Source of the DNA: a virus
Virus record (IMG/VR): IMGVR_UViG_3300045988_000106
Span: 1 to 5,690 of that record
Direction: 5' to 3' (one strand)
Length of the DNA: 5,690 bases
The position numbers and the translations under genes were made by a program. Below the pieces are notes generated by a model. That model was not told the DNA's origin. It saw nothing but the letters and a program-made list of their open reading frames with translations, and ran no database searches. This document shows positions 2,744 to 3,684 of this stretch, one piece after another (the first letter of the stretch is position 1; the number at the start of each line of letters is the position of its first letter).

Positions 2744-3133
2744 TTATACCCCCTTTCTGTATTTGCTGGTTCGTACATCGAAGTGCACCCAGCTTCTGTA
2801 TACGATAATGCCGCATTCATCCGGTACAATTTCATTCAGTATGTTGGCTACCTGTTTCGGTTTCATTCCATTTACTCGGATGTCTGCTGCCATACCGCGC
2901 ATGTGATAGCTGTATTTTGCTCCACCGCATTTTTCGTTCCACTCTGGTGTTCTGTATCCGCTTGTGATGATGACCGGCTTTCCTAGTTTATTTCGGAGAA
3001 TGTTCAGAACGTTGTGTAAGTAGTCGTCTATGAATACTACCGGGCTCAAGTCGTTGCAAGCAAATTCTTTTACTTTAAAATATTTTCCAAGTTTTTCATT
3101 TTTATCTGTTTCCACAATGTAGCTTCTAATCAT
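2744..3133 (-). CDS. Zn-dependent peptidoglycan peptidase, Peptidase_M15_3 / LAS-superfamily (D-Ala-D-Ala carboxypeptidase-like putative endolysin), 129 aa
   Basis: The translation contains FKVKEFACND...GKPVIITSGYRTPEWNEKCGGAKYSYHMRGMAADIRV...GIIVYRSWVHFDVR. This carries the SGYR-x4-N, the S-x-H-x6-D and the V-H-x-D-x-R blocks (His/Asp/His Zn ligands) of M15/LAS peptidases. The start is taken as the ATG at 3133, which has GAGGT 7 nt upstream and lies downstream of a good promoter. The track start at 3169 has no RBS and lies inside that promoter. Confidence 0.85.
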   Translation of the reverse strand: MIRSYIVETDKNEKLGKYFKVKEFACNDLSPVVFIDDYLHNVLNILRNKLGKPVIITSGYRTPEWNEKCGGAKYSYHMRGMAADIRVNGMKPKQVANILNEIVPDECGIIVYRSWVHFDVRTSKYRKGV

Positions 3134-3159: not shown

Positions 3160-3188
3160 ATGATATCATTTTTTTGGTCGATCGTCAA
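3160..3188 (-). promoter_or_regulatory. Sigma70-type promoter with extended -10, driving the peptidase/accessory/VP3/VP1 gene block
   Basis: The - strand reads TTGACG (3188..3183), a 17-nt spacer ending in TGA, then TATCAT (3165..3160). This gives a 5/6 match at -35, a 5/6 match at -10, and a TGn extended -10. The predicted TSS near 3153 leaves the GAGGT RBS and the ATG at 3133 in the leader. Confidence 0.5.
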
Positions 3189-3279
3189 TTGTTTTTTGGT
3201 TTGAATGGCGCTTTAGCGCCTTGCCGTGCGGAGCGCATGCGGAGCTCGGCTAATCCATTCATTGTTAGCGCTGTGCGCG

Positions 3280-3454
3280 TTTTCAACACTTTCAACACTT
3301 TCAACAGGTTTTCCACAAAATGTTGCACAATGATTTTCGTCATTTTGACGGACTTTCAACAATTCAACAAGTTTTCAACAAAACTTTCAACAGTGTTTTT
3401 TGCTTTTTATTTACGTTTTAGCGTTAAATTTTAGTGCTTTTCAACTTTTCCACA
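3280..3454 (+). repeat. Array of 11 direct, same-orientation 9-mers YTTTCAACA / TTTTCCACA (iteron-like or DnaA-box-like)
   Basis: The core TTCAACA occurs at 3282, 3291 and 3300 (three exact tandem 9-bp units), and at 3355, 3363, 3374 and 3386. Variants are TTCCACA at 3311 and 3448, TTGCACA at 3323 and TTCAACT at 3440. The 9-mers at 3309..3317 and 3446..3454 are TTTTCCACA. Confidence 0.9.
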
Positions 3455-3492
3455 TTGCCTACTACTACTCCTACAACAAGTTATATATTATA

Positions 3493-3524
3493 CGGCGCTT
3501 GTGAGCTTGCGAACAATAGCGCCG
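3493..3524. other. Hairpin: CGGCGCT / AGCGCCG 7-bp stem, with 3 further bp after a 2-nt bulge
   Basis: 3493..3499 pairs with 3518..3524, and 3500..3502 pairs with 3513..3515. It sits next to a - strand TATAAT (3492..3487) that has TTGTTC (3516..3511) 18 nt upstream. Confidence 0.55.
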
Positions 3525-3531
3525 AAGAGCA

Positions 3532-3574
3532 CGCGCGTGCGCGCGTGCGCGTTTCGCGCGCGTGCGCACGCGCG
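3532..3574. other. Very stable GC hairpin: 20-bp stem, TTT loop, built from alternating purine-pyrimidine sequence
   Basis: 3532..3551 pairs base by base with 3574..3555. There are 18 Watson-Crick pairs and 2 G-T pairs, and the loop is 3552..3554. The arms (3529..3551 and 3555..3574) alternate purine/pyrimidine without a break and are almost entirely G/C, which is out of character with the rest of the genome. Confidence 0.85.
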
Positions 3575-3592
3575 ATGAAGTATAGCTATTTG

Positions 3593-3610
3593 ATAGACTG
3601 AATAGACTGA
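3593..3610. repeat. Tandem direct repeat, 2 x ATAGACTGA
   Basis: 3593..3601 is identical to 3602..3610. It is preceded by the 8-bp palindrome ATAGCTAT (3582..3589). Confidence 0.8.
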
Positions 3611-3633
3611 TACATGGAGTTCTTAAATGATAA

Positions 3634-3666
3634 TAGCCAAGTACTTACTTGATAGGTACTTGGCTA
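3634..3666 (-). terminator. Hairpin 18 nt downstream of the VP4 stop; possible intrinsic terminator
   Basis: The 11-bp perfect stem is TAGCCAAGTAC (3634..3644) / GTACTTGGCTA (3656..3666). On the - strand it is followed by TTATCATTTAAG, an interrupted U-rich tract. Confidence 0.4.
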
Positions 3667-3684
3667 GGTGACACCATGACACTG

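What the first reader, a model, noticed from the sequence alone, without database searches (positions are those of the whole stretch)
3280..3454. Eleven same-orientation YTTTCAACA/TTTTCCACA repeats (DnaA-box-like iteron array) in a 515-nt non-coding region of a microvirus
Seen in sequence: the region 3170..3684 (about 9% of a very compact genome) has no supportable ORF on the coding strand. Within 175 nt of it there are 7 exact TTCAACA cores and 4 one-base variants, all in one orientation. Three of them form an exact 9-bp tandem (3280..3306) and four form a second cluster (3353..3392). A random 7-mer is expected about once per 16 kb per strand, so this is not chance. Established knowledge: the copies at 3309..3317 and 3446..3454 read TTTTCCACA, which fits the DnaA-box consensus TTWTNCACA exactly. 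TTTTCAACA and TGTTGCACA are each one mismatch away from it. On the other strand the core TGTTGAA is one mismatch from the Spo0A 0A-box TGNCGAA. Inference: the array could be one of several things. It could be a DnaA-recruiting element for complementary-strand or RF replication (compare DnaA-box-dependent ABC-primosome priming on ssDNA plasmid origins). It could be a DnaA-titrating sink like datA. It could be a set of host-regulator operators (compare Spo0A sites in phi29) placed between a possible upstream promoter and the late gene block. It could also be iterons for a phage protein. As far as I know, iteron-type repeat arrays are not part of the described Microviridae replication model, which has Rep nicking a single origin sequence.
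Basis: partly seen in the sequence, partly recalled or inferred. Interest (0 to 1): 0.8.

Follow-up and report, generated by a model that had tools for sequence, protein, structure and literature searches.

The report
Host-origin-like DnaA module in a microvirus
The repeats belong to a conserved 213-bp non-coding cassette in gut gokushoviruses that has the layout of a bacterial chromosome replication origin, which suggests these small ssDNA phages use the host initiator DnaA, a step absent from the textbook microvirus replication model.

Summary
Seven exact TTCAACA cores and four one-base variants lie on one strand at 3280-3454, far beyond chance. The array is part of a discrete 213-bp non-coding module (3280-3492).

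The module is conserved in more than 130 gut gokushovirus genomes, with near-invariant boxes and fixed spacing but variable spacers. It occurs in both orientations and in two intergenic positions.

The pooled box consensus is TTTTC[A/C]ACA, which matches the published Mollicutes DnaA-box consensus and the boxes of a Ruminococcus-type dnaA-dnaN origin. This matches the experimentally defined B. subtilis basal unwinding system in strand polarity, 8-bp box offset, 4-bp spacer and trio phase. It also matches the stretch just upstream of dnaN in Ruminococcus-like contigs.

Best reading: a compact copy or mimic of a host oriC that binds DnaA on the double-stranded replicative form and opens the adjacent AT-rich DNA. 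What follows the opening is inferred, not shown. I found no paper linking Microviridae to DnaA boxes or DnaA-trios. Biochemistry is needed.

The parts
3280..3492 (+). Whole conserved non-coding module (oriC-like cassette), read 5'->3' on the window + strand, antisense to the genes.
   Evidence: Conservation falls to background outside 3279/3493. Exactly this segment (3279-3490/3496) is inverted between collinear flanks in four close relatives.
3280..3329 (+). Left DnaA-box array, boxes 1-5: TTTTCAACA (3280), CTTTCAACA (3289), CTTTCAACA (3298), TTTTCCACA (3309), TGTTGCACA (3321).
   Evidence: The stretch resembles the host dnaA-dnaN intergenic string TTATCAACATTTTCAACAGGTTTTTCAACA.
3330..3352 (.). 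Spacer 1: variable sequence, constrained length, weak hairpin in some lineages.
   Evidence: The interval from the end of box 4 to the start of box 6 (3318-3352, which also contains box 5) is 33-36 nt in 130 of 131 modules. Mean hairpin z-score for the spacer-1 window is -1.6.
3353..3392 (+). Middle DnaA-box array, boxes 6-9: CTTTCAACA (3353), AATTCAACA (3361), TTTTCAACA (3372), CTTTCAACA (3384).
   Evidence: TTATCCACA replaces box 8 in 23 modules. The host intergenic region carries AAACAATTCAACAC.
3393..3437 (.). Spacer 2: AT-rich, variable sequence, length 44-45 nt in 130 of 131 modules.
3438..3454 (+). Tandem DnaA boxes 10 and 11 (TTTTCAACT and TTTTCCACA, 8-bp offset). These are the box pair of the unwinding system.
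   Evidence: The offset is the same as B. subtilis box#6/box#7 (TTATCCACAAATCCACA). The distance from box 10 to the first trio is 21 nt in 130 of 131 modules.
3455..3458 (.). 4-bp spacer (TTGC here; GCCC, CTCC or TACC in relatives). It corresponds to the GC cluster of the BUS.
3459..3473 (-). DnaA-trios. The + strand reads CTA CTA CTA CTC CTA. The - strand, read 3'->5', gives GAT GAT GAT GAG GAT.
   Evidence: A box followed by (CTA)3 occurs in 0 of 1000 shuffles. The trios are more than 90% conserved. Polarity is the same as the B. subtilis scaffold and the C. difficile trio.
3474..3492 (.). AT-rich element (CAACAAGTTATATATTATA), the putative DNA unwinding element.
   Evidence: The stretch of at least 80% AT has a median length of 21 nt over 132 genomes, followed by DNA of 59% GC. 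Variants found without selecting on this end carry about 30 nt of pure A/T.

Best explanation
The array is the DnaA-box part of a 213-bp cassette that copies or mimics the dnaA-dnaN type chromosomal origin of a low-GC Gram-positive gut host. Ruminococcus-like Clostridia are the best match found.

Proposed mechanism, all steps inferred:
1. On the double-stranded replicative form, host DnaA occupies about 11 head-to-tail boxes of consensus TTTTC[A/C]ACA, held at fixed spacing.
2. From the last tandem pair (3438-3454), a DnaA-ATP oligomer extends onto the DnaA-trios on the complementary strand (3459-3473).
3. This melts the adjacent AT-rich stretch (3474-3492).
4. The opened DNA then most likely serves to load the host replicative helicase and start replication of the replicative form. 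Other uses of the opening remain possible.
5. Titration of host DnaA by many copies of the module is an expected side effect.

What is shown computationally: the sequence grammar, its conservation, and its independence from orientation and position. What is not shown: DnaA binding, unwinding and any replication outcome.
For: 1. **Consensus.** The pooled box frequencies over 131 modules x 11 boxes are T.52 T.77 T.90 T.95 C.83 A.76/C.21 A.94 C.93 A.85. This equals the published Mollicutes DnaA-box consensus TT(A/T)TC(C/A)ACA. Natural variation produces TTATCCACA and TTTTCCACA.
2. **Unwinding-system layout.** Window 3438-3476 reads TTTTCAAC TTTTCCACA TTGC CTA CTA CTA CTC CTA CAA. The B. subtilis BUS scaffold reads TTATCCAC AAATCCACA GGCC CTA CTA TTA CTT CTA CTA. 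Strand, 8-bp box offset, 4-bp spacer and trio phase are the same. The rules of Pelliciari 2021 are met. The pattern occurs in 0 of 1000 shuffles.
3. **Host origin.** A real host origin (L228: dnaA-489 bp-dnaN-recF, confirmed by Pfam) carries TTATCAACA TTTTCAACA GGT TTTTCAACA at one end. Just before dnaN it carries cTTTCCAACA AAATCAACA caca (CTA)5 CAA ATATAT. Both ends of a relative's copy of the module (L006) align to it collinearly (91% and 81% identity, E = 4e-7 each).
4. **Selection.** Boxes and trios are more than 90% conserved, spacers vary in sequence but keep their length (44-45 nt; 21 nt), and conservation ends sharply at both edges.
5. **Orientation and position.** The module is antisense to the genes in 94 genomes and sense in 38. 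It lies in the VP4-to-late-gene region or the VP2-VP4 region, and is precisely inverted in four close relatives. This fits a site that acts on duplex DNA.
6. **Same boxes across diverged phages.** Phages whose VP4 is only about 38% identical to the window's carry the same boxes. This points to a conserved host factor.
7. **No other initiator.** No additional phage replication initiator beyond VP4 was found by PHROGs or Pfam.
8. **Directionality.** All boxes point toward the trios, and reverse-oriented boxes inside the module are essentially absent.
Against: - There is no binding or unwinding data.
- The commonest box, TTTTCAACA, breaks the strict E. coli consensus TTWTNCACA at position 6.
- The host is not identified. 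The only hit in genome collections is a microvirus-sized contig binned with a 'Bacteroides sp. CAG:545' MAG.
- Two genomes keep the box arrays but lack the trio and AT-rich part (L145, L148), so that part may be dispensable or those genomes defective.
- Classical gokushoviruses (Chp2, phiMH2K, SpV4) have no such module, so it is not required for gokushovirus replication in general.
- CTACAACAAGTT is more conserved than a plain AT-rich unwinding element needs to be.
- The similarity to the host origin is one of motifs and layout, not long homology.
Confidence: 0.62

Rival explanations
1. DnaA sink or DnaA-dependent regulator. The boxes bind DnaA, but the purpose is to titrate the host initiator (as datA or the B. 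subtilis inc regions do) or to tune the nearby phage promoter, not to open DNA for replication.
For: There are eleven boxes per genome copy on a multicopy replicative form. A promoter-like site for the downstream genes lies about 90 bp from the module. Two genomes keep the arrays without the trio part.
Against: The trios, the 21-nt box-to-trio distance and the AT-rich run are conserved in about 129 of 131 modules. A pure sink would not need them. The module works at two positions and in both orientations, so it has no fixed relation to any promoter.
Confidence: 0.12
2. Rolling-circle origin with iterons for the phage Rep (VP4) or another phage protein. The nick site would lie in CAACAAG/TTATATAT, which loosely resembles the phiX174 origin CAACTTG/ATATTAATAAC.
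For: CTACAACAAGT is invariant in the 11 modules found by BLAST. Iterons next to nick sites are typical of HUH-Rep replicons (established knowledge). Cassette edges at a nick site would explain module exchange.
Against: - The boxes are the same in phages whose VP4 is about 38% identical to the window's.
- In a sample not selected on this motif, the G is replaced by A or the motif is altered in 11 of 13 newly recovered modules (8 of them read CTACAACAAAT).
- Base skew at four-fold sites on the coding strand is the same whichever way the module points: -0.58 in the largest sense group versus -0.51 to -0.61 in the antisense groups. The packaged strand therefore does not appear to follow the module.
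- The layout matches a host DnaA system in detail.
Confidence: 0.12
3. Complementary-strand (ssDNA to dsDNA) origin. DnaA-box-dependent ABC-primosome assembly or another priming signal would act on the packaged single strand.
For: Microviruses need a priming site on the incoming strand. Some lineages carry an inverted box, TGTGGAAAAC, at the left edge that could form a hairpin with a duplex DnaA box. Small hairpins occur in the spacers.
Against: A single-strand signal should keep one orientation relative to the packaged strand. The module is found both ways with no change in strand composition. The window and all of clades A and B lack the inverted box. Hairpins are weak and not conserved.
Confidence: 0.07
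4. Operators for another host regulator, such as Spo0A 0A boxes as in phi29.
For: The reverse complement TGTTGAA is one mismatch from TGNCGAA. In B. subtilis, 0A boxes overlap DnaA boxes (established knowledge).
Against: The base that would create the 0A box has a frequency of 0.01 at that position, whereas the base that creates the canonical DnaA box has 0.21. A Spo0A reading does not explain the trios or the AT-rich run.
Confidence: 0.04

Closest known systems
Bacillus subtilis oriC basal unwinding system (DnaA-box#6/#7, GC cluster, DnaA-trios, AT-rich region; Richardson 2016/2019, Pelliciari 2021)
   Same: A tandem box pair at an 8-bp offset, a 4-bp spacer, CTA-phase trios on the strand that reads TTATCCACA, then AT-rich DNA. 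Several further same-direction boxes lie upstream.
   Different: It sits in a 5.6-kb ssDNA phage rather than between dnaA and dnaN. The boxes are mostly TTTTCAACA. It is more compact (213 bp). Activity has not been tested.
Ruminococcus albus-type dnaA-dnaN intergenic origin (metagenome contigs L228, L196, L178)
   Same: The same box variant, T(T/A)TCAACA. The same left-end triple box with AGGT. The same AAACAATTCAACA pair. The same right end: two boxes, 4 nt, (CTA)n, CAA, ATATAT. All elements are in the same order and orientation.
   Different: The host region is about 490 bp and the module is 213 bp. There is no long homology. Whether this genus is the host is unknown.
Mollicute oriC plasmids and DnaA-box consensus TT(A/T)TC(C/A)ACA
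   Same: The box consensus is identical. They are a precedent for small DnaA-box regions that support autonomous replication (established knowledge).
   Different: Those are chromosomal fragments cloned in the laboratory, not natural viral elements.
E. coli datA and B. subtilis DnaA-box clusters (initiator titration)
   Same: A dense cluster of DnaA boxes away from the chromosomal origin.
   Different: datA-type loci lack a trio-plus-unwinding-element arrangement. The module has one, and it is conserved.
phiX174-type microvirus origin (gpA nick site) and HUH-Rep iteron origins
   Same: A cis-acting replication element in a small ssDNA replicon, with a loose CAAC...G...ATAT resemblance.
   Different: Its orientation is not fixed. 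The repeats do not co-vary with Rep. The putative nick context is not invariant.
ABC-primosome A site (DnaA box in an ssDNA hairpin; Masai and Arai)
   Same: Uses DnaA on an ssDNA replicon.
   Different: It needs a duplex box in a hairpin and a fixed strand. Neither condition holds in the window.

Membership tests
Bacterial origin basal unwinding system (BUS) | At least one DnaA box, usually a tandem pair, within 2 mismatches of TTATCCACA | tested here: met
   TTTTCCACA at 3446-3454 has 1 mismatch and fits TTWTNCACA exactly. The partner TTTTCAACT lies 8 bp upstream.
Bacterial origin basal unwinding system (BUS) | At least 3 consecutive DnaA-trios (3'-NAN-5', consensus 3'-GAT-5') within 16 bp of the box | tested here: met
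   GAT GAT GAT GAG GAT on the - strand at 3459-3473, 4 bp after box 11. The pattern occurs in 0 of 1000 shuffles.
Bacterial origin basal unwinding system (BUS) | Polarity: the trios read CTA on the strand where the box reads TTATCCACA, 3' of the box | tested here: met
   Compared with the B. subtilis scaffold oligonucleotides oHM778, oHM590 and oHM558.
Bacterial origin basal unwinding system (BUS) | AT-rich unwinding region distal to the trios | tested here: met
   A stretch of at least 80% AT with a median length of 21 nt, followed by GC-rich DNA. Variants carry about 30 nt of pure A/T.
Bacterial origin basal unwinding system (BUS) | DnaA-ATP-dependent oligomerisation on the trios and strand separation | not testable with these tools
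   Requires a strand-separation or footprinting assay with purified DnaA.
Chromosomal oriC | Location on the chromosome next to dnaA/dnaN, supporting chromosome replication | tested here: not met
   The element lies between VP4 and the peptidase gene of a 5635-nt phage genome. It may work like an oriC, but it is not one.
Chromosomal oriC | A cluster of at least 3 DnaA boxes with a mean spacing under 100 bp | tested here: met
   Eleven boxes in 175 bp, all in one direction.
Rep (HUH) rolling-circle origin with iterons | Repeats co-vary with the Rep protein; orientation is fixed relative to the packaged strand; the nick site is invariant | tested here: not met
   The boxes are the same in phages whose VP4 is 38% identical to the window's. 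Both orientations occur with unchanged strand skew. The G of CAACAAGT is not invariant in the unselected sample. The skew test is indirect.
Spo0A 0A-box operator array | Core TGNCGAA | tested here: not met
   The required base has a frequency of 0.01 at that position over 131 x 11 boxes.
ABC-primosome A site or single-strand origin | A hairpin that places a DnaA box in duplex form on the packaged strand, in a fixed orientation | tested here: not met
   The window and clades A and B have no inverted box. The module occurs in both orientations.
datA-like DnaA titration locus | A box cluster that lowers the amount of available or active DnaA | not testable with these tools
   A box cluster is present. 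The effect on host replication initiation cannot be computed.
Known RNA families (Rfam) | A match at the gathering score | tested here: not met
   There is no hit in 3170-3684. The only weak hit lies elsewhere in the window.

The most novel reading that the evidence does not exclude
A large group of gut gokushoviruses captured a compact host oriC and uses host DnaA to start theta-type replication of the replicative form, or to persist as an episome. This would be the first DnaA- and DnaA-trio-dependent origin in an ssDNA phage. It would add a Rep-independent replication mode, and possibly a carrier state, to Microviridae. It would also offer a sequence-based handle on the hosts of these uncultured phages, through the match between phage and host origin layout.
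Probability: 0.35. Interest if true: 0.9.

Novelty: new variant of a known kind. Interest (0 to 1): 0.8.

Why it matters
- **Replication model.** Microvirus replication is taught as Rep nicking one origin, followed by host elongation factors. DnaA plays no part in that model. A conserved, movable origin-like cassette in more than 130 gut gokushovirus genomes points to an unrecognised use of the host initiator.
- **Possible consequences.** These include amplification of the replicative form without Rep, plasmid-like persistence in slow-growing anaerobes, and interference with host replication initiation through DnaA titration.
- **Host prediction.** The match to Ruminococcus-type origins gives a testable host hypothesis for abundant uncultured gut phages.
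- **A compact test substrate.** At 213 bp, the module is a compact natural arrangement of DnaA boxes, trios and an unwinding element, which makes it a convenient substrate for studying origin opening.

Tried and rejected
- **RNA families.** An Rfam scan of the whole window found nothing in the non-coding region.
- **Coding potential.** No frame stays open across modules, and spacer lengths differ by amounts that are not multiples of three.
- **Plasmids.** No relatives of the module were found in the plasmid collection.
- **Bacterial genomes.** The only hit was a microvirus-sized contig in a MAG bin. The module is therefore not a prophage end or a chromosomal element.
- **Promoter or terminator role.** The only good promoter-like site (3188-3160, - strand) lies outside the module, and the module's orientation is not fixed.
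- **Structured ssDNA or RNA in the spacers.** Hairpins are weak and lineage-specific.
- **Rep nick-site idea.** Tested by coding-strand skew against module orientation and by a sample not selected on the motif. Both argue against it, although the skew test is indirect.
- **dif/Xer site in the AT-rich end.** Compared by eye only. The match to dif arms recalled from memory was poor, and I dropped it.
- **Classical gokushoviruses.** Chp2, phiMH2K and SpV4 have no box cluster or trio run.
- **Wasted scan.** One viral-contig scan used a wrong gap length and was repeated correctly.
- **nhmmer search.** A search with the module profile against the metagenome loci was dominated by simple (TTTTCAACAGGT)n arrays and was not informative about homology.
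- **Literature.** Searches for Microviridae + 'DnaA box' and gokushovirus + DnaA returned no papers. The search for DnaA-trio + phage returned 16 papers; judging from the titles and abstract openings of the 15 listed, none appears to describe a phage-borne element of this kind.

Full report
**1. Context**

The window is a circular gokushovirus genome of 5635 nt with a 55-nt terminal redundancy. All genes lie on the - strand:
- VP1 capsid: 1641 and wrapping around the end
- VP2 pilot protein: 5570-4701
- VP4 Rep: 4704-3685
- a peptidase M15 endolysin: 3169-2744
- small ORFs
- a VP5/ORF5-like protein
- VP3 scaffold protein

The stretch 3170-3684 between VP4 and the peptidase gene is non-coding.

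**2.

- TTCAACA occurs seven times, all on the + strand, at the stated coordinates. The chance expectation is 1.17, and 0 of 200 shuffles reach seven.
- The four one-base variants and the 9-bp tandem (3281-3306) are as described.
- Nine same-strand matches to TTWTCMACA (at most 1 mismatch) fall within 175 nt. The largest cluster in 1000 dinucleotide shuffles is four.

**3. The array is part of a discrete, conserved module**

- BLAST of the non-coding region against phage records found 52 records. Some of them share only about 30% of the genome, at about 69% identity.
- Alignment of 11 genomes shows a block from the first box to ...CTACAACAAGTTATATAT. The flanks on either side are unrelated.
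Every hit was a contig of microvirus size.
- Over 131 distinct modules, the boxes and a CTACTACTAC..CTAC run are more than 90% conserved, while the two spacers vary freely in sequence.
- Distances are nearly fixed: spacer 2 is 44-45 nt in 130 of 131 modules, and the distance from box 10 to the first CTA is 21 nt in 130 of 131.
- No reading frame is open across the modules, and there is no Rfam match.

**4. Orientation and position are free**

- Among 132 genomes, the module is antisense to the genes in 94 and sense in 38.
- It lies either between VP4 and the next gene or between VP2 and VP4. GenBank annotations confirm this.
- In four close relatives (VP4 91-94% identical to the window's), exactly 3279-3490/3496 is inverted between collinear flanks.
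- Those flanks are GC-rich and partly palindromic (GTGCGCG ... CGCGCAC). This could explain inversion by recombination, but that is an inference.
- Module similarity mostly follows the phage clades, so the module is inherited rather than repeatedly re-acquired.

**5. What the repeats look like**

- The pooled box frequencies are T.52 T.77 T.90 T.95 C.83 A.76/C.21 A.94 C.93 A.85.
- This is the published Mollicutes DnaA-box consensus TT(A/T)TC(C/A)ACA.
- TTTTCAACA is also listed as a DnaA-box motif for other bacteria in origin tables.
- Natural variation produces TTTTCCACA and, at one box in 23 modules, TTATCCACA.
- The base that would create a Spo0A 0A box is virtually never seen (0.01).

**6.

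Directly after the last two boxes comes TTGC CTA CTA CTA CTC CTA CAA CAAGTT ATATATTATA. The B. subtilis basal unwinding system, as used in strand-separation assays, reads 5'-TTATCCAC AAATCCACA GGCC CTA CTA TTA CTT CTA CTA-3'. The window reads 5'-TTTTCAAC TTTTCCACA TTGC CTA CTA CTA CTC CTA CAA-3'.

- Strand polarity, the 8-bp box offset, the 4-bp spacer and the trio phase all coincide.
- The published search rules are met: a box within 2 mismatches, a spacer of at most 16 bp, and at least three NAN trios with GAT preferred.
- The C. difficile trio is written CACCTACTACTATTACTACTATGA.
- A box followed by (CTA)3 occurs in 0 of 1000 shuffles.
- After the trios comes a stretch of at least 80% AT with a median length of 21 nt, followed by GC-rich DNA.
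- In a sample not selected on the right end, some lineages carry about 30 nt of pure A/T. Two genomes lack the trio part and one has it duplicated.

**7. Link to a host origin**

- The origin table of Pelliciari 2021 lists TTTTCAACA GGT TTTTCAACA for Ruminococcus albus 7.
- A metagenome scan with that 21-mer recovered contigs carrying dnaA-489 bp-dnaN-recF. Pfam confirmed the genes.
- The intergenic region starts with TTATCAACA TTTTCAACA GGT TTTTCAACA and contains AAACAATTCAACAC.
- Just before dnaN it ends with cTTTCCAACA AAATCAACA caca (CTA)5 CAA ATATAT.
- Two related contigs show the same plan.
- Both ends of a relative's copy of the module (L006) align to this region collinearly, at 91% and 81% identity with E = 4e-7 each.
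- There is no long homology. The relation is one of shared motifs, order and spacing. This fits either an old capture followed by compaction, or mimicry.

**8. Interpretation**

The best reading is a DnaA-dependent, oriC-like element that acts on the duplex replicative form. Its independence from orientation and position, the identical boxes in phages with very different Rep proteins, the absence of any further phage initiator, and the detailed match to a characterised DnaA system all point this way.

The step after DNA opening is not determined. The leading candidates are helicase loading followed by theta-type amplification, or episomal maintenance. DnaA titration is a likely side effect.

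**9. Rivals**

- **Rep nick site in CAACAAG/TT.** The G is not invariant in the unselected sample. Coding-strand base skew at four-fold sites (about 53% A and 16% T in the window) does not change with module orientation.
- **Single-strand priming site.** This is hard to reconcile with both orientations and with the lack of an inverted box in the window.
- **Pure sink.** This does not explain the conserved trios and spacing.

**10. Limits**

- Everything rests on sequence grammar and comparative data.
- The host is unidentified.
- TTTTCAACA is a weak box by E. coli rules.
- Classical gokushoviruses lack the module, so it is an accessory of one large gut clade.
- Within the searched library, I found no paper that connects Microviridae with DnaA boxes or trios.

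Noticed in passing
window 3529-3574: A GC-rich, alternating purine-pyrimidine palindrome (CGCGCGTGCGCGCGTGCGCG / CGCGCGCGTGCGCACGCGCG; 20-nt arms, 90% complementary) lies just right of the module. Unrelated GC-rich hairpins sit at the same place in other clades. Together with GTGCGCG at 3273-3279, it forms short inverted repeats around the module that could mediate its inversion.
   Followed up: partly
window 3634-3666: A 14-bp inverted repeat (TAGCCAAGTACTTA / TAGGTACTTGGCTA) lies directly after the VP4 stop codon on the - strand, followed by TTATCATTT. It looks like a terminator and is conserved in close relatives, including those that lack the trio part.
   Followed up: no
window 3188-3160 (- strand) and 3133: A promoter-like site (TTGACG, 17 nt, TGnTATCAT) overlaps the first ATG of the 141-aa peptidase ORF. 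Relatives annotate the peptidase at 130-133 aa. The true start is therefore probably the ATG at 3133, preceded by GAGGT, and the non-coding region is nearer 550 nt.
   Followed up: partly
whole window; also L001-L131: Four-fold degenerate sites on the coding strand are about 53% A and 16% T in the window. This is the opposite of the T-rich coding strand of phiX174. The phiMH2K record is also A-rich, with A 0.35 and T 0.19. The cause is unknown, and so is which strand is packaged.
   Followed up: partly
window 3593-3610 and 3227-3245: Two further short direct repeats occur in the non-coding region: ATAGACTGA x2 in tandem, and TGCGGAGC x2 spaced 11 nt apart. They lie outside the module and their function is unknown.
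   Followed up: no
L144, L145, L148 (viral contigs): L144 carries a tandem duplication of the box pair plus trios. L145 and L148 keep the left and middle box arrays but have lost the box pair, the trios and the AT-rich run.
   Followed up: partly
L006, L008-L010, L016 and others, left edge of the module: An inverted box, TGTGGAAAAC, sits 4-5 nt before the first forward box in 24 of 32 clade D, 2 of 2 sense clade C and 8 of 20 antisense clade C genomes. It could form a hairpin with a duplex DnaA box, or serve as an oppositely oriented boundary box.
   Followed up: partly
L153, L218, L222, L200, L162, L202 (metagenome contigs): Long arrays of (TTTTCAACAGGT)n with a 12-bp period occur in environmental contigs that are not microviruses. 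Their nature is unknown.
   Followed up: no
L156, L160, L170 (human-gut contigs of 70-240 kb): The same triple box, TTATCAACATTTTCAACAGGTTTTTCAACA, lies in an intergenic region beside what looks like a tRNA gene end. It is away from any dnaA or dnaN hit. It may be a second DnaA-box cluster in a gut bacterium.
   Followed up: no
L131 (CAVKUS010000079.1): A complete 5739-nt microvirus contig carrying the module is binned in a MAG labelled Bacteroides sp. CAG:545. As a host hint it is weak, and it conflicts with the Clostridia-type origin match.
   Followed up: no
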